From the IMG/VR virus record IMGVR_UViG_2711768073_000020, positions 1 to 39,494 of that record: a DNA stretch of 39,494 nt, one strand, 5' to 3'. The notes under the pieces were generated by a model. That model was not told where the DNA came from, ran no database searches, and worked only from the letters and a program-made list of their open reading frames with translations. A program made the position numbers and the translations under genes. This stretch comes from a virus. Taxonomy: Duplodnaviria; Heunggongvirae; Uroviricota; Caudoviricetes. This document shows, in pieces, positions 6,493 to 21,061 of the stretch. The number at the start of each line of letters is the position of its first letter. The first letter of the stretch is position 1.

Positions 6493-7167
6493 TTAGGCTT
6501 TGATTTTGTATCTTCTTGGTTTTCCTGAGAAAATCACTGTACCAATTATAGAGCAATTACCGTTGATCTTAATGTAAGGCTCAGGCCAGTTTGGGTTTAA
6601 CGCTTTGAGATAACGCTGTGTCCCATCTTCTATCAACCTTTTGAAGGTGGTTTCGCCTGTATCGTGCATCAATGCAATAACGTCGTCACCGTGGCAGGCA
6701 GGTACTTCAGGATCGACAAAAATCATGTCTCCCGGGCGGTACTCATCAATCATTGAATCACCTATCACCCGCAAGATATAAGTCATTTCCCCACAGGGTA
6801 CAGGGCAGGGATACGTTTCTGCTGTGCTCAAATCAACCTCAGAATATCCAACTTCTTTCCATGCTCCGGCCTGTACCCATGATATGACAGGGACTAATGT
6901 GATTTGTTTATTAGTGATTGAAACATCAGGTTTTTTTGTGATGTTCGTTGTCTGGTGTTCTTGATCGAGCCATCCGACAGGCAGGTCGAAACATTTTTCG
7001 ATGTGTCGTGCCATGCTGTCACCGATATTTTTAGTAGCACCATCTCCCATAAACCTGCTGGTCTGGGTTGGCTCGCGATCAATCATAGTGGCAAAGGAAG
7101 AATTCCCGCCAACACCATCTCTCAGTTTTCTGGCGTTAGACCGCCGGATGTCATGGATTGTTTTCAT
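6493..7167 (-). CDS. cI: CI-type prophage repressor (HTH plus S24 LexA-like peptidase domain), 224 aa
   Basis: C-terminal self-cleavage domain with Ser motif (VIGDSMIDEYRPGDMIFVDP) and a downstream Lys (TTFKRL); divergent from a cro-like gene across an operator-rich 90-bp spacer. Confidence 0.85.
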   Translation of the reverse strand: MKTIHDIRRSNARKLRDGVGGNSSFATMIDREPTQTSRFMGDGATKNIGDSMARHIEKCFDLPVGWLDQEHQTTNITKKPDVSITNKQITLVPVISWVQAGAWKEVGYSEVDLSTAETYPCPVPCGEMTYILRVIGDSMIDEYRPGDMIFVDPEVPACHGDDVIALMHDTGETTFKRLIEDGTQRYLKALNPNWPEPYIKINGNCSIIGTVIFSGKPRRYKIKA

Positions 7168-7182
7168 AACGAAATTAAAACC

Positions 7183-7252
7183 CTTGTACCGTTAAGGTAC
7201 AAGTATCTTGAAGGTTCATTTCAATCATGTAATATGTACACCGGAGGTACAT
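7183..7252. promoter_or_regulatory. OR region: two palindromic operators plus candidate PR (-35 TTGAAG 7208-7213, -10 TAATAT 7230-7235)
   Basis: Perfect palindrome CTTGTACC-GTTAA-GGTACAAG (7183-7203) and ATGTACA-CCGGAG-GTACAT (7234-7252) between divergent cI and cro; GGAGG RBS at 7243-7247 before the cro ATG. Confidence 0.55.
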
Positions 7253-7257
7253 ATTGT

Positions 7258-7458
7258 ATGAAAGCGTATTGGGACTCTTTAACCAAAGAACAGCAGGGCG
7301 AGTTGGCCGGAAAAGTTGGCTCAACACCTGGCTACTTACGGCTGGTTTTCAATGGCTATAAAAAAGCCAGTTTTGTGCTGGCTAAAAAACTTGAGCAATG
7401 CACGTCAGGTGCAATTACGAAATCTGACTTAAGACCGGATATCTATCCGAAAGATTAG
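7258..7458 (+). CDS. cro: Cro-like HTH regulator (YdaS/Cro family), 66 aa
   Basis: MKAYWDSLTKEQQGELAGKVGSTPGYLRLVFNGYKK...; GGAGG RBS; divergent from cI. The 167-aa ORF-track version (from 6955) overlaps the cI promoter region and is rejected. Confidence 0.6.
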   Translation: MKAYWDSLTKEQQGELAGKVGSTPGYLRLVFNGYKKASFVLAKKLEQCTSGAITKSDLRPDIYPKD

Positions 7459-8053: not shown

Positions 8054-8388
8054 ACAGTTTAACAACACACTACCGTCGCTCGCAACTGATTGCGCTTCCT
8101 GTACCGGGTGGAAAAGCGAAGGTGGAGTATTGCTATGCAGTAAATGTACCAGGTGACAGGGAAATTGTAACCCACAGCTTTGCAGAGTGGGCTGTGGGTG
8201 ATTTCAACCGGCAGAAGGAGACAGTCCTTTGCGACAAGTTAACCGCTGGTTCAAAGATCACTACGGAGTGCCCGTCAGAGTCATTCGTTGGGAGCCGGAA
8301 ACACAACGTGTTATCTACCTCCGCGAAGGCTATGAGCATGAGTGCTTCAGCCCGCTCGAACAGTTTCGTCGTAAATTCAGGGAAATAG
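8050..8388 (+). CDS. Hypothetical protein; C-terminal half possibly out of frame (see small ORF 8229..8408)
   Basis: ATGA start coupling with the upstream gene; the N-terminal ~55 aa look protein-like, the C-terminal part is low-complexity Ser-rich ([10 protein letters not shown]) while an alternative frame over the same DNA looks coding. Confidence 0.3.
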
Positions 8389-8408
8389 AGGTCGGTCATG
8401 AGCACTAA
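8229..8408 (+). CDS. Candidate small protein (59 aa, TTG start) not in the ORF track
   Basis: Strong AAGGAG (8215-8220) 8 nt upstream of TTG 8229; translation [59 protein letters not shown] has balanced, protein-like composition; stop overlaps the start of the O-like gene. Confidence 0.35.
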
Positions 8409-9339
8409 ATTAACCGGCTATGTATGGGATGGTTGCGCTGCATCAGGCATGAAATTATCCAGCGTGGCAATTATGGCCCGCCTGGCTGATTTCAGTAATG
8501 ACGAAGGTGTGTGCTGGCCATCAATTGAAACCATTGCCCGCCAGATTGGCGCGGGAATGAGTACCGTCAGAACGGCTATCGCACGGCTGGAAGCAGAAGG
8601 CTGGTTAACGCGTAAGGCGCGTCGCCAGGGTAACCGCAATGCGTCGAATGTTTATCAGCTTAACGTTGCGAAGCTTCAGGCAGCGGCATTTTCTCAACTG
8701 TCAGATTCTGACCCGTCAAAATCTGACGCATCAAAATCTGACCCGTCAAAATTTGATGCGTCGAAATCTGGCAAAAAAGCGGGTTTTCACCCGTCAGAAT
8801 CTGGCGGGGATCCGTCAGTAAAATCAAAACATGATCCGTCAGATAAAAAAACTTCTCGTCCGGACGCTTCGCAACCGGACACGCAGACGGCTGAACAGGA
8901 GTTTTTAACTCGCCATCCTGATGCGGTTGTATTCAGCCCTAAAAAGCGCCAGTGGGGAACGCAGGATGATTTGACCTGCGCACAGTGGCTCTGGAAAAAA
9001 ATCATCGCCCTGTACGAGCAGGCCGCCGAATGTGACGGCGAGGTGGTTCGTCCCAAAGAACCGAACTGGACAGCCTGGGCAAACGAAATTCGCCTGATGT
9101 GTGTGCAGGATGGTCGTACTCATAAACAAATCTGCGAGATGTACAGCCGCGTCAGTCGCGATCCGTTCTGGTGCCGTAACGTGCTCAGCCCGTCGAAGCT
9201 GCGGGAAAAATGGGATGAGCTTTCCCTGCGCTTATCGCCGTCCGTCAGCACGTACACCGAAAAACGCGAAGACCCGTACTTCAAAGCCAGTTACGACAAC
9301 GTGGACTACAGCCAAATCCCGGCAGGATTCAGGGGGTGA
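8398..9339 (+). CDS. Replication initiation protein (lambda O-like: N-terminal HTH DNA-binding domain, iteron-containing linker, C-terminal domain), 313 aa
   Basis: N-terminus SSVAIMARLADFSNDEGVCWPSIETIARQIGAGMSTVRTAIARLEAEGWL (winged-helix initiator type); central repetitive SDSDPSKSDASKSDPSKFDASKS encoded by DNA iterons. Confidence 0.7.
   Translation: MSTKLTGYVWDGCAASGMKLSSVAIMARLADFSNDEGVCWPSIETIARQIGAGMSTVRTAIARLEAEGWLTRKARRQGNRNASNVYQLNVAKLQAAAFSQLSDSDPSKSDASKSDPSKFDASKSGKKAGFHPSESGGDPSVKSKHDPSDKKTSRPDASQPDTQTAEQEFLTRHPDAVVFSPKKRQWGTQDDLTCAQWLWKKIIALYEQAAECDGEVVRPKEPNWTAWANEIRLMCVQDGRTHKQICEMYSRVSRDPFWCRNVLSPSKLREKWDELSLRLSPSVSTYTEKREDPYFKASYDNVDYSQIPAGFRG
8701..8805. repeat. Origin-type iterons: five 15-bp-spaced copies of TCA(A/G)AATCTG(A/G)C plus one more, followed by an A-rich tract
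   Basis: Copies at 8701, 8716, 8731, 8746, 8761 and 8794; AGATAAAAAAAC at 8841-8852; embedded in the initiator gene as in the lambda ori. Confidence 0.6.
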
Positions 9340-9830
9340 GCATGAGTCTTTTGAATGACGTTCAGAAATTCATTGAAGCCCATCCGGGCTGTACTTCCGG
9401 AGATATTGCGGATGCTTTTGCCGGTTACTCACGGCAGCGCGTTCTGCAGTCAGCAAGCAAGTTACGTCAGAGTGGGCGTGTGGCTCACCGTTGTGAAGGA
9501 GATACACGCAGACATTTCCCGCGCCTGACTGAGAGAGCGCAGGAACCGGAACCACAACCAGTTCGTGAAACCAGACCTGTGCGCAATTTCTATGTCGGCA
9601 CTAACGATCCCCGTGTGATTTTGTGCCTGACCCGCCAGGCGGAAGAACTGGAGTCCAGGGGCTTATACCGTCGTGCTGCAACCGTGTGGATGGCGGCATT
9701 CCGTGAAAGCCACTCCCAGCCAGAACGAAACAATTTTCTGGCGCGTCGTGAGCGGTGCTTACGGAAAAGCAGCAAGCGCGCTGCATCGGGTGAAGAGTGG
9801 TATCTGTCAGGGAATTACGTGGGGGCTTAA
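9336..9830 (+). CDS. Hypothetical replication-region protein, 164 aa
   Basis: ATGA overlap with the O-like gene stop; basic C-terminus; not recognisable as lambda P, DnaC or a helicase. Confidence 0.45.
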   Translation: MSMSLLNDVQKFIEAHPGCTSGDIADAFAGYSRQRVLQSASKLRQSGRVAHRCEGDTRRHFPRLTERAQEPEPQPVRETRPVRNFYVGTNDPRVILCLTRQAEELESRGLYRRAATVWMAAFRESHSQPERNNFLARRERCLRKSSKRAASGEEWYLSGNYVGA

Positions 9831-10483
9831 TGAGTAATAAATATTGCCAGGCGCTGGTGGAACTGCGGAACAAACCAGCCCATGAACTGAAGGAAGTGGG
9901 CGATCAGTGGCGCACGCCGGACAACATTTTCTGGGGAATTAACACCCTGTTTGGCCCGTTTGTTCTGGATCTGTTCACTGACGGTGATAACGCCAAATGT
10001 GCCGCGTATTACACGGCGGAAGACAACGCGCTGGCGCATGACTGGTCAGAACGTCTTGCGGAGCTTAAAGGTGCTGCCTTTGGTAATCCCCCATACAGCC
10101 GCGCCAGTCAGCATGAGGGGCAATACATCACCGGCATGCGTTACATCATGAAACATGCCAGTGCCATGCGTGATAAGGGCGGGCGCTATGTTTTCCTGAT
10201 CAAAGCTGCCACCAGCGAAGTGTGGTGGCCGGAAGATGCAGATCATATTGCTTTTATTCGCGGGCGTATTGGTTTTGAACTGCCTGTCTGGTTTATCCCG
10301 AAAGACGAGAAGCAGGTACCGACAGGAGCTTTTTTCGCTGGTGCTATTGCTGTTTTTGACAAGACCTGGAAGGGACCGGCAATCAGCTACATCGGGCGCG
10401 ATGAACTTGAGGCATGTGGTGAGGCGTTTCTGGCGCAGGTTCGCCAGCAGGCAGAAAAACTGGTCAGGGAGATGGCGGCATGA
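9830..10483 (+). CDS. Phage DNA N6-adenine methyltransferase (Dam-like), ~217 aa
   Basis: Catalytic NPPY motif (AFGNPPYS); start ATG 9830 overlaps the upstream stop (TAATG). Confidence 0.8.
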   Translation: MSNKYCQALVELRNKPAHELKEVGDQWRTPDNIFWGINTLFGPFVLDLFTDGDNAKCAAYYTAEDNALAHDWSERLAELKGAAFGNPPYSRASQHEGQYITGMRYIMKHASAMRDKGGRYVFLIKAATSEVWWPEDADHIAFIRGRIGFELPVWFIPKDEKQVPTGAFFAGAIAVFDKTWKGPAISYIGRDELEACGEAFLAQVRQQAEKLVREMAA

Positions 10484-10806
10484 CGACGTTAACTCAATGC
10501 CAGCAGCAGGTGCTGGATATGCTGATTTCTTATCAGAAAGAACGTGGCTTCCCGCCAACCAATCAGGAGGTGGCAACCATGCTGGGATACCGTTCAGTGA
10601 ATGCAGCGGTGGAGCATCTTCGCGCACTGGAGAAAAAAGGCGTCATCACGATAAAGCGTGGCGTGGCCCGGGGGATCACGCTTCATACCGCGGTGAAGGA
10701 CGACGACAGCGAGGCGGTCGGGATTATCCGCTCACTGCTTGCCGGTGAGGAAAACGCAAGGCTGCGTGCAACCCACTGGTTACATGAGAGAGGCCTGAAA
10801 GCATGA
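10480..10806 (+). CDS. LexA N-terminal DNA-binding-domain-like protein (no peptidase domain), 108 aa
   Basis: QQQVLDMLISYQKERGFPPTNQEVATMLGYRSVNAAVEHLRALEKKGVI parallels the LexA winged-HTH N-domain; no Ser/Lys S24 domain follows. Confidence 0.6.
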   Translation: MTTLTQCQQQVLDMLISYQKERGFPPTNQEVATMLGYRSVNAAVEHLRALEKKGVITIKRGVARGITLHTAVKDDDSEAVGIIRSLLAGEENARLRATHWLHERGLKA

Positions 10807-11192
10807 AGCTGATCCTGCCTTTTCCGCCCAGCGTGAACACGTACTGGCGACACCCCAACAAAGGGGCGTTTGCTGGTAAGAGCCTGATAAGCTCGGCGGG
10901 GCGAAAATTCCAGAGCGCGGCGTGCGCAGCAATAGTTGAGCAGTTACGTCGTCTGCCGAAACCAACGTCGGCACCTGCTTCAGTGGAGATCGTGTTGTTT
11001 CCTCCGGATAACCGGATCCGCGATCTGGACAACTATAACAAGGCGCTGTTTGACGCCCTGACCCATGCGGGTGTGTGGGAAGACGACAGTCAGGTGAAAA
11101 GAATGCTGGTGGAGTGGGGACCGGTTATCCCGAAAGGGAAAGTCGAGATCACTATCAGTAAGTACGAGAAAACGGCGGGTGCAGCCGCCTGA
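10803..11192 (+). CDS. rusA: Holliday junction resolvase RusA
   Basis: ~129 aa with RusA-like acidic motif (DNRIRDLDNYNKALFDALTHAGVWEDDSQV); ATGA coupling with the upstream gene. Confidence 0.8.
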   Translation: MKLILPFPPSVNTYWRHPNKGAFAGKSLISSAGRKFQSAACAAIVEQLRRLPKPTSAPASVEIVLFPPDNRIRDLDNYNKALFDALTHAGVWEDDSQVKRMLVEWGPVIPKGKVEITISKYEKTAGAAA

Positions 11193-13018: not shown

Positions 13019-13035
13019 TTTGGTGGAGAAAGTTG

Positions 13036-13401
13036 ATGCGTGATATTCAGATGGTTCTGGAGCGTTGGGGAGCATGGGCGGCGAGTGATAGTTCTGGAGT
13101 AGACTATTCGCCTATAGCTGCTGGGTTTAAGGGGCTTCTTCCCTACACAAGCAAAACACGTCAGGCTTGTTCAGATAGTGATGCATTAATTATTGAAGGT
13201 TGTCTTGCTCGTCTAAAGCAAAAAAAGCCAGATGAGCACTCGCTGCTTGTGGCACATTATTTATACAGAATATCCAAGCGTAAGATTGCAAAGGTGCGTG
13301 GAAAGGATGAAAAATTGGTACGCATAGAAATACAACTAGCCGAAGGATTTATTGATGGTTGCCTTTCAATGTTGGATGTTAACCTTGAAATGGACGCTTA
13401 G
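13036..13401 (+). CDS. Late-gene antiterminator Q (phage-82/DLP12 QuuD-type small Q), 121 aa
   Basis: MRDIQMVLERWGAWAA...AAGFKGL...RLEMD pattern of the small Q family; GGAG RBS 8 nt upstream of ATG 13036. Confidence 0.75.
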   Translation: MRDIQMVLERWGAWAASDSSGVDYSPIAAGFKGLLPYTSKTRQACSDSDALIIEGCLARLKQKKPDEHSLLVAHYLYRISKRKIAKVRGKDEKLVRIEIQLAEGFIDGCLSMLDVNLEMDA

Positions 13402-13407
13402 GGTTGC

Positions 13408-13437
13408 ACAGGTTGGCCCCATATGAGGCCAACCTGT
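13408..13437. other. Perfect 11-bp-stem hairpin between convergent Q and the membrane-protein gene
   Basis: ACAGGTTGGCC-ccatatga-GGCCAACCTGT; starts 7 nt after the Q stop and overlaps the minus-strand gene's stop codon; no U-tract on either strand. Confidence 0.4.
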
Positions 13438-13886
13438 CACAAGTGGGGGAAGATTTTTCGTAACACTAACCAACACCTTCCGAAGGTATATAGCGAAATT
13501 ATAAGGGAGGATAAGCCTAACAGTATGAATAGGAAATCAATAGGTTTGCCCGCAACAATAACATCATCTGGTAGAAACATCGCTATCAATGGAAATATAC
13601 ATGCGACGATGAGAGTTAACCCTGTTGAAAGTAATCGATTTACCAGAGTTGGTAACACGTTGTTTTGCTTAAGGGCATTAATTGCTCCTTCCTTATCGCT
13701 GTTTGCACTACTAAATATAGATATTGCAGCCAGAACAAAACCAAACAGGATGCCTGATATAGTCGAGAGCACCCCCGCTGTTGTGAGTACGTCAGCATGC
13801 TTCATCGGTTTAAACAGTTTTGTCGCTGCATAGGTCAACAGAATCCAGAGGACGCATTTCCAGAGAAAAGTGGCTAATTCTCTCAT
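13437..13886 (-). CDS. Small integral membrane protein with four predicted TM helices (RexB-like architecture), ~149 aa
   Basis: Four hydrophobic segments (LATFLWKCVLWILLTYAA; VLSTISGILFGFVLAAISIF; LLSTGLTLIVACIFPLIAMFL; IDFLFILLGLSSLIISLYTF); GGAGG RBS before ATG 13886; 21 nt downstream of the 313-aa gene on the same strand; AT-rich by eye. Confidence 0.6.
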   Translation of the reverse strand: MRELATFLWKCVLWILLTYAATKLFKPMKHADVLTTAGVLSTISGILFGFVLAAISIFSSANSDKEGAINALKQNNVLPTLVNRLLSTGLTLIVACIFPLIAMFLPDDVIVAGKPIDFLFILLGLSSLIISLYTFGRCWLVLRKIFPHL

Positions 13887-13907
13887 TGTGTCCTCCATGC
13901 TTGGTTA

Positions 13908-14849
13908 TTAGTCTCTGCTAGCGAGCTCATACTGTGCAAGATAGTTCGCGTTATCAATTTTAGCAGATATCATCGCCGTTCTGATATCAGAATCGGATGG
14001 ATAACCGCTTTTGACAATGATTGTCTTTGTACTGACCAATACTTGGTCAAGTAGACTTTTGGGCGTTCTATTGGATGGCTCTGTTACATCAATTTTTTTA
14101 ATTTTTAGACCTCCAGAACCTTTTGGAAAAAGTTCAAGTAGTTCCTTAATAGCATCGGTGACAGAAGTTTTTAGATAGTTAAAACCTTGTTTTTTCGGGC
14201 GAATCCGACCTCGCATATTTAATCTTAGATGCGACCCGCCCATACCAACAACCATGTCAATAATTTCATTAGCTAAAGGGTTTTTAATCTTATAATTAGC
14301 TTTGTTAAAGTTTCTTGGAGCAGCAACTATAAGATCGAAACTACGTAGGATATTTCCGTCCTCAAGCAGTTCCTTCATGCTCTCTTGTTTCCAAATGGCT
14401 TCAAAAGTGACGCTTTTTAAATCAGTTTTGTTATACAAAATGAATGCCAGATCATTTACTTTGGGCCCTATATGGTTGAGGGTCATAGCTAATAAGTCCG
14501 TTTCGTAGTAATAGATAAAATATGTTCTTTCAACTACAGAATCTTTATCATTTAAAGGAATTGTTCTCTCACTACCTGTAGCATCCTCGATGAACGGTAG
14601 TAGGCATTCCCTTCTCCACGATACGTAACCAAAGTAACATTGCAGTGTGGTATCTTTTTGAAGAATAACTAACTTTAACCCTCGATTTGGGGTGTCTGTT
14701 GTGTAAGTTATTGGAAAAGTTACAGTATCTGCTGTGGTCATTTGCTCAAAGGCTAGTTTTGCAGCAGATGTGCCATCTTTTTTGCTTCCATTACCAGTGA
14801 AAAAACCAACTCTCACTCGCCTGGTTTTATTCTTATTTTCTGTACTCAT
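13908..14849 (-). CDS. 313-aa soluble protein of unknown function, co-operonic with the 4-TM protein (candidate RexA-like sensor)
   Basis: Basic N-terminus (KNKTRRVRV); no enzymatic motif recognised; AT-rich coding sequence, antisense to all flanking phage genes; candidate promoter on the minus strand upstream (TTGTTG...TAAAAT). Confidence 0.6.
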   Translation of the reverse strand: MSTENKNKTRRVRVGFFTGNGSKKDGTSAAKLAFEQMTTADTVTFPITYTTDTPNRGLKLVILQKDTTLQCYFGYVSWRRECLLPFIEDATGSERTIPLNDKDSVVERTYFIYYYETDLLAMTLNHIGPKVNDLAFILYNKTDLKSVTFEAIWKQESMKELLEDGNILRSFDLIVAAPRNFNKANYKIKNPLANEIIDMVVGMGGSHLRLNMRGRIRPKKQGFNYLKTSVTDAIKELLELFPKGSGGLKIKKIDVTEPSNRTPKSLLDQVLVSTKTIIVKSGYPSDSDIRTAMISAKIDNANYLAQYELASRD

Positions 14850-14910
14850 TATCGATCCGAAATAATTTTAGCAACCGTGTGAAAAATACAACAAAAAAAA
14901 GAGGAAATCA

Positions 14911-14939
14911 TTAGCGCGGTCCGCAAAAAACATTGTAAT
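14911..14939 (+). promoter_or_regulatory. Candidate late promoter PR' (-35 TTAGCG, 17-nt spacer, -10 TGTAAT)
   Basis: Only plausible sigma-70-like promoter upstream of the intrinsic terminator at 14972-15003 and the lysis cassette; weak -35. Confidence 0.3.
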
Positions 14940-14971
14940 CTGTTAAGAGTGGTTACTTCGCCACACAGCTT

Positions 14972-15003
14972 AAACCCGCCGTCGAGCGGGTTTTGTCGTT
15001 TCT
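14972..15003 (+). terminator. Intrinsic terminator (tR'-like) upstream of the lysis genes
   Basis: Stem AAACCCGC / GCGGGTTT with loop CGTCGA followed by TTTTGTCGTTTCT. Confidence 0.6.
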
Positions 15004-15145
15004 GTGGCTGGGGATTCGTTGGTCCTGGCCTATTCCGCAGTTCTCCATCGGTTCGGCTTCTTTGATGTTTCCGCTTCTGATTTGCGGTACATGATGTTCC
15101 CTCAATTTGCACCTGCTGTATCAGCGAGGTGAGAGATAACTACAA

Positions 15146-17202: not shown

Positions 17203-17228
17203 ATGCTTATTACAAAGAGTTTTCTTCA

Positions 17229-17579
17229 ATGCCACCACGAACTCCAAAAGCCTGCCGTGTTCGCGGGTGCCGCCGTACCACCACTGACCCGTCAGGTTAT
17301 TGCGAAAGCCACAAAAGCGAAGGCTGGAAGCAATACAAGCCAGGACAATCCCGTCATCAGCGCGGCTACGGTTCGAAGTGGGACGTTATCCGCGCGCGTG
17401 TGCTGAAACGTGACAAAGGTTTATGTCAGTTATGTCTGCGCGCTGGTGTGGTGCGTGAGGCGAAAACTGTTGACCACATCATCCCTAAAGCGCATGGCGG
17501 CACTGATGCCGACTGTAATCTGCAGAGTCTGTGCTGGCCGTGTCATAAGGCGAAGACGGCCCGTGAACGGTTGAAGTGA
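17229..17579 (+). CDS. HNH endonuclease (terminase-associated), copy 1, 116 aa
   Basis: Cys-rich zinc motifs (CRVRGC...CESH) and HNH core (DHIIPKAHGGTDADCNLQSLCWPCH); 5' part only ~88% identical to copy 2 at the DNA level. Confidence 0.8.
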   Translation: MPPRTPKACRVRGCRRTTTDPSGYCESHKSEGWKQYKPGQSRHQRGYGSKWDVIRARVLKRDKGLCQLCLRAGVVREAKTVDHIIPKAHGGTDADCNLQSLCWPCHKAKTARERLK

Positions 17580-17704
17580 TAATAATTCTCAACTGCCTGA
17601 GGGGAGGGGCGGGTCAAATCCCTGCGGCCTGACGTCTTCCGGACTGCCCGCCCCATCGTTTTTTTATACCCGCGAAAAATGAAATTTAACCAGGAGTGCC
17701 GCAT
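17580..17704. other. Candidate cos / packaging region between HNH and TerS (copy 1)
   Basis: GC-rich dyad GGGGCGGG...CCCGCCCC followed by TTTTTTTATAC; in HK97-type phages cos lies between the HNH gene and the small terminase gene. Confidence 0.3.
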
Positions 17705-18190
17705 ATGGCTGGAACGGCGGGGCGTTCCGGGCGTCGCCCCAAGCCAACGGCGCGCAAGGCGCTGGCCGGAAACCCCGGCAAGCGAGCCCTGAATAAAGAT
17801 GAACCTGTTTTTACGCCCATCAAAGGTGTTGAGCCACCGGAATGGTTCGCTGAAGAAGATCTCCCTCTCGCTACGATCATGTGGCAACTGACAACTAAAG
17901 AACTCTGCGGTCAGGGCCTGCTGTGCGTGACTGACCTCGCGGTGCTTGAGCGGTGGTGCGTGGCCTATGAGTTCTGGCGACGTGCCGTGAAAAATATTGC
18001 CAGCCAGGGCAACACCATTACCGGTGCAATGGGCGGTATGGTCAAAAACCCGGAGCTGACCGCCAAGAAAGAACAGGAGTCCGAGATGAGCAGCACGGGG
18101 GCAATGCTCGGACTCGACCCCAGCAGCCGCCAGCGTCTGATTGGCCTGGCGGGGAAGAAGAAAGCCACTAACCCGTTTCTGACAATCTGA
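17705..18190 (+). CDS. Terminase small subunit (P27 family), copy 1, 161 aa
   Basis: [14 protein letters not shown]... with AGGAG RBS 8 nt upstream of ATG 17705; protein identical to copy 2. Confidence 0.75.
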
Positions 18191-18203
18191 AAATCATCGA
18201 ATC

Positions 18204-18388
18204 ATGAGCCGGAAATCTTACCCCAACGTAAATGCTGCCAATCAGTATGCCCGGGATGTCGTGCGCGGAAAGATTGTGGCCTGCCAGTTTGTGATTCAGG
18301 CCTGCCAGCGCCATCTTGATGACCTGATGGCGGAAAAAAGTAAGTCGTTTCGTTACCGCTTCGACAAGGATCTGGCTGAACGGGCCGC
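18204..18388 (+). pseudogene. Terminase large subunit, 5' fragment (first ~62 codons) truncated at an IS3 junction
   Basis: Matches the first ~185 nt of the intact TerL gene at 21075 and diverges after 18388, where IS3-derived sequence begins. Confidence 0.8.
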
Positions 18389-19038
18389 ATTCCACGCAGA
18401 TTATGCCGCTTCAGTTGCGCCTGATAATCTGCTGAACAGTACTGGCCTCCACGGTCCGTGTGAACGATAACGTTCCGGGGCCTCTTACGCCGCCACAGCG
18501 CCATCTGCAGGGCATCGCAGGCCAGTTGCGCCGTCATGCGTGGCGACATTGACCAGCCAATAACGGCACGTGACCACAGGTCAATGACCACTGCCAGATA
18601 CAGCCAGCCTTCATCTGTACGTAAGTACGTGATGTCTCCTGCCCACTTCTGGTTCGGGCCACTGGCGTAAAAATCCTGCTCCAACAGATTTTCTGACACA
18701 GGCAGGCCGTGTGCGCGGTAGCTGACCGGGCTGAACTTCCGGGAGGCCTTTGCCCTCAGTCCCTGACGGCGCAGGCTTGCCGCCACGGTTTTTACGTTAA
18801 AGGGGTAACCCTGAGCACGCAGTTCATCCGTCAGGCGTGGGGCACCGTAACGCTGTTTTGACCGGGTAAAAGCCGCGAGGACAACGCTGTCGCAGTGTTG
18901 GCGGAACTGCTGACGCGTGCTTATCCTTGTCCGCCGCTGACACCACGTATACCAGCCGCTGCGGGCCACCCGGAGCACGCGGCACATTGCTTTGATGCTG
19001 AACTCAGCCTGATGTTTTTCAATAAAGACATACTTCAT
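18389..19038 (-). pseudogene. insF: IS3 transposase InsF (OrfB), 3'-truncated
   Basis: [36 protein letters not shown]...QLKRHNLRG matches IS3 InsF, then reads into non-IS DNA. Confidence 0.8.
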
Positions 19039-19334
19039 TTCAGGCGCTTCGCGAAGTATGTCGCGGCCTTTTGGAGGATAGCCAGCTCTTCATCCCGTTC
19101 TGCCAGCTGGCGTTTGAGACGTGCAATCTCGGTAGACATCTCCAGTTCACGTTCAGAAGACGTCTGCTGATTTTGCTGTTTACTGCGCCAGTTGTAGAGC
19201 TGTGATTCATACAGGCTGAGTTCACGGGCTGCGGCAGTAACACCGATGCGTTCAGCAAGCTTCAGGGCTTCACTGCGAAATTCAGGCGAATGCTGTTTAC
19301 GGGGTTTTTTACTGGTTGATACTGTTTTTGTCAT
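19035..19334 (-). CDS. insE: IS3 InsE (OrfA), 99 aa
   Basis: [54 protein letters not shown]... from ATG 19334. Confidence 0.85.
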
Positions 19335-19396
19335 GTGAGTCACCTCTGACTGAGAGTTTACTCACTTAGCCGCGTGTCCACTATTGCTGGGTAAGA

Positions 19397-19570
19397 TCAC
19401 TCATCACGTATTTGTGTTTCATGTTTGCGATTGTAGAAGTAGCCATTCAGTTCATTTAACTTTTTATGCATCCTATCGTGACTAATTGCTTCGATCAGTA
19501 AATCCTGAATCATACTTTTCTCTAGGTAATCCGAACGGTTGTAAGTGACAGTATTGTGCTGGCATGTCAT
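19397..19570 (-). pseudogene. Small ORF (57 codons) whose stop codon is supplied by the IS3 terminus; probable IS3-truncated gene
   Basis: Minus-strand ORF MTCQHNTVTYNRSDYLEKSMIQDLLIEAISHDRMHKKLNELNGYFYNRKHETQIRDE ends with the TGA of the IS3 end TGATCTTACC; no clear RBS. Confidence 0.3.
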
Positions 19571-19613
19571 TAATATGTAAAGGTATTGTGAATGCCAGAA
19601 AGATAACGAAGTA

Positions 19614-19949
19614 TCATCGATAGAAAAACTTTACAGCCCACTCGTAAACAGCTTTGTAAATCGGTTCATGGTAAATACTATCGATACTATTCAGATGTGC
19701 GATCATCGCCTCCACAGTTGTAGTGGTTGTTTCTAATATTTCGATTATTGCAGGGCGGTCATCATCTTCATCGAAGTATTCGAACAGCAGTACAGGTTTA
19801 CCATGCAATTCAGCATCTGAGACTCTAAGGTTACAACTACCGCTCAACTCAAAGTGAATTTTGTAATTACCTTCTACAGAATGGCCTACGGGGAAAAAGT
19901 ATAGGGTGTCATCTTTGTTCAAAAGCCATGCCCATTCATAACTATTCAT
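19614..19949 (-). CDS. Hypothetical acidic protein, ~111 aa (AT-rich island between the IS3 fragment and packaging module 2)
   Basis: AGGAG 7 nt upstream of ATG 19949; poly-Thr/acidic stretch (DEDDDRPAIIEILETTTTT). Confidence 0.45.
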   Translation of the reverse strand: MNSYEWAWLLNKDDTLYFFPVGHSVEGNYKIHFELSGSCNLRVSDAELHGKPVLLFEYFDEDDDRPAIIEILETTTTTVEAMIAHLNSIDSIYHEPIYKAVYEWAVKFFYR

Positions 19950-20099
19950 TTGTGAACTCCTGTTCATTGAGTTTCAACAACTATCAACTACATCCAGCGA
20001 AGCATAAAAGATCGTTTATGGCAAAACCGGAATGGAGTGCGATTCGATTCTGAGAAGGGTGCCACGTATCGTACGCGAACCATCCAAGAGGATTATGCA

Positions 20100-20450
20100 A
20101 TGCCCCCACGAACCCCAAAAGCCTGCCGCGTTCGCGGCTGCCGCCATACCACCACTGACTCGTCAGGCTATTGCGAAAGCCACAAAAGCGAAGGCTGGAA
20201 GCAATACAAGCCAGGCCAGTCCCGACACCAGCGCGGTTATGGTTCGAAATGGGATGTTATCCGTGAACGTGTGCTCAAGCGTGACAAAGGCCTGTGCCAG
20301 TTGTGCCTGCGTGCTGGTGTGGTGCGCGAGGCGAAAACCGTTGACCACATCATCCCTAAAGCGCATGGCGGCACTGATGCCGACTGTAATCTGCAGAGTC
20401 TGTGCTGGCCGTGTCATAAGGCGAAGACGGCCCGTGAACGGTTGAAGTGA
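20100..20450 (+). CDS. HNH endonuclease (terminase-associated), copy 2, 116 aa
   Basis: Same HNH motifs as copy 1; AGAGGA RBS 7 nt upstream of ATG 20100. Confidence 0.8.
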   Translation: MPPRTPKACRVRGCRHTTTDSSGYCESHKSEGWKQYKPGQSRHQRGYGSKWDVIRERVLKRDKGLCQLCLRAGVVREAKTVDHIIPKAHGGTDADCNLQSLCWPCHKAKTARERLK

Positions 20451-20575
20451 TAATAATTCTCAACTGTCTGAGGGGAGGGGCGGGTCAAATCTCTGCGGCC
20501 TGACGTCTTCAGGACTGCCCGCCCCATCGTTTTTTTATACCCGCGAAAAATGAAATTTAACCAGGAGTGCCGCAT
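20451..20575. other. Candidate cos / packaging region between HNH and TerS (copy 2)
   Basis: Same GC-rich dyad and T-tract as copy 1 with 3 substitutions. Confidence 0.3.
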
Positions 20576-21061
20576 ATGGCTGGAACGGCGGGGCGTTCCG
20601 GGCGTCGCCCCAAGCCAACGGCGCGCAAGGCGCTGGCCGGAAACCCCGGCAAGCGAGCCCTGAATAAAGATGAACCTGTTTTTACGCCCATCAAAGGTGT
20701 TGAGCCACCGGAATGGTTCGCTGAAGAAGATCTCCCTCTCGCTACGATCATGTGGCAACTGACAACTAAAGAACTCTGCGGTCAGGGCCTGCTGTGCGTG
20801 ACTGACCTCGCGGTGCTTGAGCGGTGGTGCGTGGCCTATGAGTTCTGGCGACGTGCCGTGAAAAATATTGCCAGCCAGGGCAACACCATTACCGGTGCAA
20901 TGGGCGGTATGGTCAAAAACCCGGAGCTGACCGCCAAGAAAGAACAGGAGTCCGAGATGAGCAGCACGGGGGCAATGCTCGGACTCGACCCCAGCAGCCG
21001 CCAGCGTCTGATTGGCCTGGCGGGGAAGAAGAAAGCCACTAACCCGTTTCTGACAATCTGA
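20576..21061 (+). CDS. Terminase small subunit (P27 family), copy 2, 161 aa
   Basis: Identical protein to copy 1; immediately followed by the intact large subunit. Confidence 0.8.

What the first reader, a model, noticed from the sequence alone, without database searches (positions are those of the whole stretch)
10480..10806. LexA DNA-binding-domain-only protein encoded in the nin-like region
The 108-aa protein resembles the LexA N-terminal winged-helix domain but has no peptidase domain, so it could occupy SOS boxes without being cleavable by RecA-stimulated autoproteolysis. That could modulate host SOS genes or prophage induction. It is translationally coupled to the Dam-type methylase upstream and RusA downstream.
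Basis: partly seen in the sequence, partly recalled or inferred. Interest (0 to 1): 0.4.

Follow-up and report, generated by a model that had tools for sequence, protein, structure and literature searches.

The report
Prophage LexA-like DNA-binding protein, uncleavable
A common E. coli prophage gene encodes a small protein copied from the DNA-binding half of the host SOS repressor LexA but lacking the self-cleaving half; it is real and already annotated, its function has never been tested, and a changed DNA-contact residue makes simple occupation of SOS boxes doubtful.

Summary
ORF 10480-10806 (+) encodes a 108-aa protein. Residues 1-69 are a full LexA winged-helix domain (Pfam PF01726, E 2.9e-19; 50% identical to E. 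coli LexA; model rmsd 1.0 Å). There is no S24 peptidase domain. ATGA start/stop overlaps join it to a phage Dam methylase upstream and RusA downstream, in the replication-to-Q region of an SfV/mEp460-like prophage beside proA/tRNA-Thr.

It is not new as an object. Similar DNA is in 2233 of 5426 complete E. coli genomes, annotated "LexA family transcriptional regulator" (PHROG 362). I found no functional study.

New here:
- A family-specific C-terminal two-helix hairpin, probably the dimerisation element.
- Invariant pairing with rusA (80/80 viral loci).
- Strong purifying selection (pN/pS 0.03 in the DNA-binding domain).
- Glu44, one of five LexA base-contact residues, is never Glu in this family. 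It is Glu in nearly all LexA-type sequences sampled.
- No SOS box or enriched palindrome in the prophage.

Best reading: a RecA-insensitive, LexA-derived dimeric regulator made during lytic growth. Its operator is probably related to the SOS box but not identical. SOS-box mimicry stays possible (about 0.3). The closest characterised analogue is GIL01 gp6, a LexA-domain-only activator.

The parts
10480..10806 (+). Gene for the 108-aa LexA-derived protein, called LexN in this report
   Evidence: ORF. PF01726 E 2.9e-19. PHROG 362 E 1.5e-59, full length. pN/pS 0.117 over 49 alleles.
10480..10686 (+). Residues 1-69: LexA-type winged helix-turn-helix. Helices 6-22, 28-35 and 40-52; wing strands 56-58 and 66-68.
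   Evidence: AlphaFold2 model. Foldseek match to 3jso/1lea with rmsd 1.0-1.2 Å at 49-51% identity. pN/pS 0.034.
10594..10632 (+). Recognition helix, residues 39-51: SVNAAVEHLRALE (E. coli LexA has SPNAAEEHLKALA). Ser39, Asn41, Ala42 and Glu45 are kept; Glu44 is Val.
   Evidence: Alignment to E. coli LexA. Contact residues taken from PMC3091678. Family and LexA residue census.
10687..10803 (+). Residues 70-108: low-confidence linker (71-75), then two amphipathic helices (75-87 and 93-103). This is the family-specific extension and the inferred dimerisation element.
   Evidence: Model secondary structure and pLDDT. Conserved in relatives of 38-65% identity. No Pfam match. pN/pS 0.226.
10467..10471 (+). 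Shine-Dalgarno-like GGGAG, 8 nt upstream of the ATG
   Evidence: Read directly from the sequence.
10480..10483 (+). ATGA overlap of the Dam stop codon and the LexN start codon
   Evidence: Sequence. Dam is the upstream gene in only 40 of 77 scorable loci.
10803..10806 (+). ATGA overlap of the LexN stop codon and the RusA start codon
   Evidence: Sequence. RusA starts 317-326 nt after the LexN start in 80 of 80 viral loci.
9797..10483 (+). Phage Dam-type N6-adenine methyltransferase. RefSeq relatives start at the ATG equivalent to 9830.
   Evidence: PF05869 E 1.1e-45. Annotation of locus L001.
10803..11192 (+). RusA Holliday-junction resolvase, the invariant downstream partner
   Evidence: PF05866 E 9.5e-15. 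PHROG 34. Synteny. This rusA allele occurs at 2976 places against 2855 for LexN in E. coli genomes.
6493..7167 (-). Prophage CI-type repressor with an S24 peptidase domain. Context only: by analogy with other S24 repressors the prophage should be RecA/SOS-inducible.
   Evidence: PF00717 E 1.5e-26. Annotated 'LexA family protein ymfK' in L001.

Best explanation
LexN is a small DNA-binding regulator that lambdoid prophages of Enterobacteriaceae derived from the N-terminal domain of a proteobacterial LexA.

Shown here:
- It has the complete LexA winged helix-turn-helix.
- It has no S24 peptidase or dimerisation domain.
- It carries a conserved 40-residue C-terminal helical hairpin.
- It overlaps rusA and sits inside the rightward early gene block with no promoter-like site of its own.
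- It is under strong purifying selection.

Inferred:
- It is made only when the early-right operon runs, that is after infection or after RecA-dependent inactivation of the prophage's S24-type repressor.
- The hairpin replaces the LexA C-terminal domain as the dimer interface, so two wings can read a palindrome.
- The protein cannot be switched off by RecA*.
- It keeps Ser39, Asn41, Ala42 and Glu45 but has lost Glu44, as has every relative. Its operator is therefore most likely a palindrome related to, but not identical with, the CTGT-N8-ACAG SOS box.
- No operator travels with the gene in these mosaic phages, so the target is more likely a constant one (host chromosome or other resident elements) than a phage promoter.
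- The regulatory sign (repression or activation) is unknown. Repression by promoter occlusion is the default for a LexA-type domain.
For: Domain identity and fold.

Absence of S24, and below the lexA equivalog cutoff.

The C-terminal two-helix extension is conserved down to 38-50% identity in prophage proteins of Cronobacter, Kosakonia, Enterobacter, Cedecea, Klebsiella, Salmonella and Citrobacter.

Purifying selection: pN/pS 0.034 (DNA-binding domain) and 0.226 (extension).

Operon position:
- ATGA overlaps on both sides.
- No sigma-70-like site on the + strand between 7000 and 15200.
- The prophage repressor has an S24 domain.

Altered contact residue:
- Val44 here; residue 44 is never Glu in the short family.
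- Glu44 is present in 9 of 10 full-length LexA and in almost all fragments that run into the LPLxGRVAAG region.

No phage-borne operator was found:
- No exact SOS box, and one-mismatch hits are at chance level.
- CTG-N10-CAG is not enriched once the CTG/CAG trinucleotide abundance is allowed for.
- TGT-N6-10-ACA palindromes are at or below expectation.
- No shared palindrome across three diverged lineages.

Only rusA is constantly linked, while upstream genes and Q types vary.

Precedent: GIL01 gp6, a LexA-domain-only phage protein, binds its own palindrome and not the LexA box (PMC6182141).
Against: - No binding site has been identified, so the central claim (altered operator) rests on one substituted contact residue plus family variability.
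- The base read by Glu44 could not be checked with these tools.
- Four of five contact residues and 50% overall identity to E. coli LexA could still allow SOS-box binding.
- Dimerisation through the hairpin is inferred from a monomer model with mean pLDDT 77.5 and pTM 0.52. No multimer prediction was possible.
- Expression timing is inferred from gene order, not measured.
- The promoter scan is a crude consensus search.
Confidence: 0.45

Rival explanations
1. Uncleavable LexA mimic. LexN dimers occupy canonical host SOS boxes and re-repress the SOS regulon during prophage induction, when host LexA has been cleaved. They might also repress LexA-controlled antirepressors, colicins or toxins of co-resident elements.
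For: - 50% identity and 1.0 Å rmsd to the E. coli LexA DNA-binding domain.
- Ser39, Asn41, Ala42 and Glu45 are retained.
- No S24 domain.
- The prophage repressor has an S24 domain, so by inference LexN appears when LexA is depleted.
- A host-borne target fits the lack of any operator linked to the gene.
- Very strong constraint on the DNA-binding domain (pN/pS 0.034).
Against: - Glu44 is Val, and residue 44 is never Glu in the family, although it is near-invariant in the sampled LexA sequences.
- Contact positions 42, 44 and 45 differ between lineages. The lineages with named sources are all from Enterobacteriaceae, which should share one SOS box.
- LexN has diverged faster than its neighbour RusA: 49-56% against 74-87% identity in the same loci. 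That is not expected if it were held to LexA's target.
Confidence: 0.3
2. Phage-internal regulator like GIL01 gp6. LexN binds a phage-specific palindrome at a phage promoter and activates or times expression of phage genes, for example the Q-dependent late region, the KilA-N or Rha antirepressor-like gene, or the moron downstream of Q.
For: - The only characterised LexA-domain-only phage protein works this way (PMC6182141).
- The variable recognition helix among lineages fits co-evolution with phage-specific operators.
- PHROG 362 is categorised as transcription regulation.
Against: - No candidate operator was found. There are no enriched or conserved palindromes in the window or in diverged loci.
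- There is almost no non-coding DNA between the replication gene and Q.
- The gene keeps only rusA as a constant neighbour, while immunity, Q and lysis modules are shuffled. A distant phage operator would often be lost.
- gp6 is not an orthologue: BLASTP finds no alignment, its best PHROG is 3502 rather than 362, and its key Lys38 aligns with Asn41.
Confidence: 0.15
3. Non-transcriptional DNA-targeting or accessory subunit for the neighbouring DNA enzymes (the RusA resolvase or the DUF968/HNH nuclease). Alternatively, a decoy whose LLAGE segment mimics the LexA cleavage-site region.
For: - Invariant overlap with rusA (80/80 loci), and near 1:1 co-occurrence in E. coli genomes (2855 against 2976 places).
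- One protein (P0158) fuses this type of wHTH to the HNH part of DUF968.
- Residues 86-90 (LLAGE) align with LexA VAAGE around the Ala84-Gly85 site.
Against: - The fusion is a singleton on one contig, so it is probably a deletion product.
- From general knowledge, RusA works as a homodimer without partners, and other rusA alleles such as the one in DLP12 lack LexN.
- Tight linkage of overlapping genes is expected without any functional tie.
- The AGE motif is absent in more distant family members and lies in a predicted helix.
Confidence: 0.1

Closest known systems
E. coli LexA repressor, N-terminal DNA-binding domain (PDB 1lea, 3jso)
   Same: - Same Pfam domain over its full length.
- About 50% identity over 68 residues, rmsd 1.0 Å.
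- Ser39, Asn41, Ala42 and Glu45 of the recognition helix and Arg64-Gly65-Ile66 of the wing are conserved.
   Different: - No S24 peptidase/dimerisation domain and no Ser119/Lys156.
- Below the NCBIfam lexA cutoff.
- Glu44 is Val.
- A 40-residue helical hairpin replaces the C-terminal domain.
- Encoded in a prophage early operon rather than an autoregulated SOS gene.
GIL01 (Bacillus thuringiensis tectivirus) gp6, a LexA-domain-only activator of late promoter P3 (PMC6182141)
   Same: A phage-encoded LexA DNA-binding domain without the cleavage domain. Both match PF01726. gp6 shows that such proteins can bind their own palindrome rather than the LexA box.
   Different: - An independent derivation: gp6 is 44% identical to Bacillus LexA, LexN is 50% identical to E. 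coli LexA.
- BLASTP between the two finds nothing; a MAFFT alignment gives about 35% identity.
- Different PHROGs: 3502 for gp6, 362 for LexN.
- gp6 has 66 aa with no C-terminal hairpin.
- The key Lys38 of gp6 corresponds to Asn41 here.
- Different virus type, host and genomic position.
PHROG 362 / RefSeq 'LexA family transcriptional regulator' of lambdoid phages (SfV orf42, mEp460 'LexA DNA binding domain protein', Stx2 phages)
   Same: This is the same gene, at 95-100% DNA identity. It is found in 71 phage records and 2233 of 5426 complete E. coli genomes.
   Different: Nothing differs. These are annotations by similarity only. No functional study was found in the searchable literature.
N-terminal fragments of S24 repressors after cleavage (LexA 1-84; staphylococcal phage CI N-terminal domain)
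   Same: An isolated DNA-binding domain that could still bind operators. The abstract of PMC10584840 (listed) says ClpX is essential for inactivating the CI repressor and completing prophage induction after RecA*-promoted cleavage.
   Different: Those are transient cleavage products that are removed by proteolysis. LexN is a dedicated gene product with its own C-terminal module, and it does not end in an Ala-Ala tail.

Membership tests
Bona fide LexA SOS repressor (TIGR00498) | N-terminal LexA winged helix-turn-helix DNA-binding domain | tested here: met
   PF01726 positions 1-65 of 65, E 2.9e-19. 1lea E 6.9e-16. rmsd 1.0 Å to 3jso.
Bona fide LexA SOS repressor (TIGR00498) | C-terminal S24 peptidase/dimerisation domain with the Ser-Lys dyad | tested here: not met
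   The protein ends at residue 108. There is no PF00717 hit. In the alignment to LexA nothing corresponds to residues 90-202.
Bona fide LexA SOS repressor (TIGR00498) | Whole-protein score above the curated equivalog cutoff | tested here: not met
   70.8 bits against a cutoff of 110.95.
Bona fide LexA SOS repressor (TIGR00498) | All five base-contacting residues of helix 3 (Ser39, Asn41, Ala42, Glu44, Glu45) | tested here: not met
   Four of five are kept; Glu44 is Val. Residue 44 is never Glu in the short family but is Glu in 9 of 10 full-length LexA sampled.
Bona fide LexA SOS repressor (TIGR00498) | Binds CTGT-N8-ACAG SOS boxes and is inactivated by RecA* | not testable with these tools
   This needs EMSA or reporter assays. 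RecA*-stimulated self-cleavage is excluded by the absence of the S24 domain.
Phage LexA-domain-only regulators (GIL01 gp6 type) | [quoted passage not shown] | tested here: met
   LexN additionally has a 40-residue helical extension that gp6 lacks.
Phage LexA-domain-only regulators (GIL01 gp6 type) | Orthology or close sequence relation to gp6, including the Lys38 DNA contact | tested here: not met
   BLASTP gives no alignment. The best PHROG for gp6 is 3502, against 362 for LexN. Lys38 aligns with Asn41.
Phage LexA-domain-only regulators (GIL01 gp6 type) | Binds a phage palindrome overlapping the -35 of the late promoter and activates it | tested here: inconclusive
   No candidate palindrome was found in the window or in related loci. 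Binding itself is not testable here.
PHROG 362 (phage 'transcriptional repressor', LexA-like) | Full-length match to the family profile | tested here: met
   E 1.5e-59, residues 1-107 on profile positions 1-105 of 106. A relative of 49% identity (L004) also matches, E 4.1e-35.

The most novel reading that the evidence does not exclude
A RecA-proof LexA surrogate. During SOS induction of the prophage, LexN dimers take over SOS-type operators that cleaved host LexA has vacated. They would re-silence part of the SOS regulon or the LexA-controlled antirepressors of rival prophages. That would give a phage carried by about 40% of E. coli genomes control over the host DNA-damage response and over competing mobile elements.
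Probability: 0.25. Interest if true: 0.7.

Novelty: new member of a known kind. Interest (0 to 1): 0.35.

Why it matters
The gene is in about 41% of complete E. coli genomes, including Stx2-converting and Shigella serotype-converting phages, yet it has no tested function. E. coli K-12 probably lacks it; that is recalled from general knowledge and was not checked here.

If LexN acts on SOS-type operators, it would be a phage-encoded off-switch for the DNA-damage response that RecA cannot remove. That would bear on prophage induction, Shiga-toxin release, SOS mutagenesis under antibiotics, and competition among co-resident prophages.

If instead it has its own operator, it is a second, independent case after GIL01 gp6 of a phage re-tooling the LexA DNA-binding domain. 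It would also offer a natural experiment in how one contact-residue change (Glu44 to a hydrophobic residue) re-targets a winged helix.

Either way the tests are simple and cheap.

Tried and rejected
1. SOS boxes in the prophage. There is no exact CTGT-N8-ACAG. There are 17 one-mismatch hits against 12.9 ± 3.4 expected.

2. An apparent enrichment of CTG-N10-CAG: 27 hits against 9.4 in dinucleotide shuffles. This is an artefact. CTG and CAG are over-represented trinucleotides, every spacing from 4 to 17 gives 15-30 hits, and the trinucleotide expectation is 22.9.

3. Relaxed half-sites TGT-N6-10-ACA are at or below expectation. The only intergenic hit is ATGTACCAGGTGACAG at 8144-8159. It is a single chance-level site with a GC-rich spacer and was not pursued.

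4. Short inverted repeats in the window and in two diverged lineages. These show only the OR operators (7183-7261), the origin iterons (8700-8727) and terminator-like hairpins. Nothing is shared between lineages.

5. A covariation test of the recognition helix against the host SOS box is uninformative, because every family lineage that carries a source name is enterobacterial.

6. The Rosetta-stone lead P0158 (wHTH fused to the DUF968 HNH part) is a singleton on one contig. It was rejected as evidence.

7. The search for related loci with the most diverse alignment failed because no stretch was conserved enough. A narrower alignment worked.

8. Literature. Seven searches gave results and none found a study of this enterobacterial family. 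An eighth search was swamped by unrelated hits. The LexA-DNA structure paper was not held, so the exact base read by Glu44 could not be confirmed.

9. PADLOC gives no meaningful defence-system hit for LexN: a wHTH-level match at E 3.6e-4.

Full report
**What is there**

The window is an E. coli chromosomal segment. It starts in proA, followed by tRNA-Thr, and then runs into an SfV/mEp460-like lambdoid prophage. The gene order is:
- integrase;
- yfdT-yfdP-like early-left genes;
- an S24-type CI repressor (6493-7167, - strand; PF00717);
- Cro- and CII-like genes;
- an O-like replication gene (8398-9339);
- a PerC-family gene (9336-9830);
- a phage Dam methylase (to 10483);
- the gene in question (10480-10806);
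- RusA (10803-11192);
- a KilA-N protein, then a DUF968/HNH protein;
- antiterminator Q (13033-13401);
- lysis and HK97-type head genes.

**Check of the observation**

The ORF is exactly as stated: 108 aa, ATG start, TGA stop. An ATGA overlap joins it to the gene on each side, and an SD-like GGGAG lies 8 nt upstream.
- Residues 1-65 match Pfam LexA_DNA_bind over the whole model (E 2.9e-19).
- The best PDB sequence hits are all LexA (1lea, E 6.9e-16).
- An AlphaFold2 model (mean pLDDT 77.5) superposes on LexA in its DNA complex with rmsd 1.0 Å at 50% identity.
- There is no S24 domain, and the NCBIfam lexA equivalog is missed (70.8 bits against a cutoff of 110.95).
- Across 49 distinct alleles from related loci there are no internal stops. 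pN/pS is 0.034 for the winged-helix part and 0.226 for the tail.

**It is already an annotated object**

- The 2.8-kb block around the gene is 96-99% identical in mEp460, SfV (orf42), many Stx2a/2c/2d/2k phages and others. There the gene is called 'LexA DNA binding domain protein', 'LexA-like protein' or 'transcriptional repressor'.
- DNA at least 90% identical occurs in 2233 of 5426 complete E. coli genomes (2855 places), annotated 'LexA family transcriptional regulator'.
- It is PHROG 362 (E 1.5e-59).
- The literature searches that gave results found no functional work on it.

After the wing there is a low-confidence linker (residues 71-75). It is followed by two helices, 75-87 and 93-103.
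- An exhaustive HMMER search found full-length relatives at 38-52% identity that keep this extension. The conserved pattern is EAV..(I/L)(R/Q).(L/M)(L/I)......A..A..(W/F/Y)L...G.
- All members with source names come from Enterobacteriaceae: Cronobacter, Kosakonia, Enterobacter, Cedecea, Klebsiella, Salmonella and Citrobacter.
- The tail has no Pfam family and no structural counterpart in PDB hits.
- A 30-residue amphipathic helical hairpin is unlikely to be stable alone. LexA-type domains read palindromes as dimers. I therefore infer that the hairpin is the dimerisation element that replaces the missing LexA C-terminal domain. This is inference, because no multimer prediction was available.

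**Genomic logic**

- In 80 viral-contig loci, rusA begins 317-326 nt after the LexN start in every case. This includes ten loci where LexN is only 49-56% identical while RusA is 74-87% identical.
- In one such locus the order is CI(S24) - CII - ? - O-like - LexN - RusA - Rha/Ant - DUF968 - Q.
- The upstream gene varies: Dam in 40 loci, PerC-like in 28, other in 9.
- In E. coli genomes this rusA allele and LexN occur in nearly equal numbers (2976 against 2855 places).
- No sigma-70-like site lies on the + strand between 7000 and 15200. The gene is therefore presumably read from the early-right promoter. If so, the protein appears on infection or after RecA-dependent loss of the S24-type prophage repressor.

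**Would it sit on SOS boxes?**

PMC3091678 lists the LexA DNA-contacting residues as Ser39, Asn41, Ala42, Glu44 and Glu45. LexN has Ser, Asn, Ala, Val and Glu.
- The substitution is systematic. Residue 44 is V, A, T, F, L or Y in the family lineages and never Glu. Residue 45 is E in most but G, D, L or I in others, and residue 42 is A, T or G.
- Among the same search's hits that continue into a LexA cleavage-site or S24 region, the helix reads NAAE(E/D/Q/S)HL almost without exception. That holds for 9 of 10 full-length sequences. The exception, from a Halothiobacillaceae genome, reads NAAVT.
- The lineages with named sources all come from Enterobacteriaceae. Their hosts should share one SOS box, yet their contact residues differ.
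- LexN also evolves faster than the adjacent RusA.

These points argue that the family is not held to LexA's operator. They do not exclude binding to some SOS boxes, because four contacts, the wing (Arg64-Gly65-Ile66) and the overall fold are retained. I could not verify which base Glu44 reads, since the structure paper was not available.

**Search for an operator**

- The prophage has no exact SOS box, and one-mismatch hits are at chance level.
- An apparent threefold excess of CTG-N10-CAG disappears when CTG/CAG abundance is accounted for.
- TGT-Nx-ACA palindromes are not enriched.
- Short inverted repeats reveal only the immunity operators, the origin iterons and terminators. Nothing is shared among three diverged lineages.
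- There is almost no non-coding DNA between the replication gene and Q, and everything except rusA is shuffled around LexN. A phage-borne operator would often be separated from the gene. This favours a constant target, such as host DNA, over a phage promoter. That is an argument from absence.

**Comparison with the known**

The closest characterised system is GIL01 gp6. It is a 66-aa LexA-domain-only protein that binds GaCACAnnTGTGaC over the -35 element of late promoter P3 and activates it. Lys38 is essential (PMC6182141).
- LexN shares the Pfam domain with gp6.
- It is otherwise an independent derivation. BLASTP finds no alignment, a global alignment gives about 35% identity, the best PHROGs differ, Lys38 corresponds to Asn41, and gp6 has no hairpin.
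- Foldseek against viral models shows that LexA-domain-only proteins are widespread in phages (Caudovirales, Tectiviridae, mycobacteriophage Wildcat).

LexN is therefore a member of a known kind (phage LexA-derived DNA-binding proteins). It is not a LexA, and its target is unknown.

**Verdict**

- The feature is real, correctly located and correctly recognised as a LexA N-terminal-domain protein.
- It is common and already annotated.
- The mechanistic idea of RecA-proof SOS-box occupancy is plausible but weakened by the family-wide loss of Glu44.
- My best estimates are: a RecA-insensitive dimeric regulator with an SOS-box-related but altered operator, 0.45; a true SOS-box mimic, 0.30; a gp6-like phage-promoter regulator, 0.15; a non-transcriptional partner or decoy, 0.10.
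- Interest is moderate (0.35). The specialist surprise is low, but the biology would be worthwhile if the SOS link holds, and the decisive experiments are easy.

Noticed in passing
window 13402-15145: A low-GC block (0.37-0.43, against about 0.54 nearby) lies between antiterminator Q and the holin. It carries two reverse-strand ORFs: 13437-13898 (153 aa) and 13908-14849 (313 aa). Neither has a Pfam or PADLOC match. This is a moron at the position where Stx phages carry stx. A near-perfect 30-bp palindrome (13408-13437, ACAGGTTGGCCCCAT/ATGAGGCCAACCTGT) sits at its left edge.
   Followed up: partly
window 17215-21061: The HNH endonuclease and terminase small subunit genes are present twice: 17229-17579 plus 17696-18190, and 20037-20450 plus 20567-21061. 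The repeat detected is 300 nt at 89% identity, 2871 nt apart. The copies bracket an IS3-family element with transposase ORFs at 18202-19038 and 19035-19343 on the - strand.
   Followed up: partly
proteins P0131, P0185, P0159 and others: Some metagenomic proteins carry two LexA_DNA_bind domains in tandem, with the helix motif SPNGVMCHLRALE. This may be an alternative, covalent solution to the dimer requirement of a LexA domain that lacks its C-terminal domain.
   Followed up: no
protein P0158: A single 240-aa protein fuses a LexN-type winged helix to the HNH part of DUF968, the gene that lies two positions downstream of LexN in the window. It is a singleton on one 401-kb contig, so it is probably a deletion product in a decaying prophage.
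   Followed up: yes
window 10735-10749 (residues 86-90, LLAGE): HMMER aligns this segment with LexA VAAGE around the Ala84-Gly85 cleavage site. It may be a relic of the LexA linker. It is not conserved in distant family members and lies in a predicted helix.
   Followed up: partly
window 7183-7261: The immunity-region operators look like TTGTAC/GTACAA-type inverted repeats: CTTGTACC-N5-GGTACAAG and TCATGTAATATGTAC-N7-GTACATATTGTATGA. They lie between the S24 repressor gene and the Cro-like gene.
   Followed up: no
window 8144-8159: ATGTACCAGGTGACAG is the only SOS-like half-match (ATGT-N8-ACAG) in an intergenic region. It lies between the CII-like gene and the replication genes, next to the inverted repeat 8170-8199. 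It is present in 40 of 81 loci but is statistically unremarkable.
   Followed up: partly
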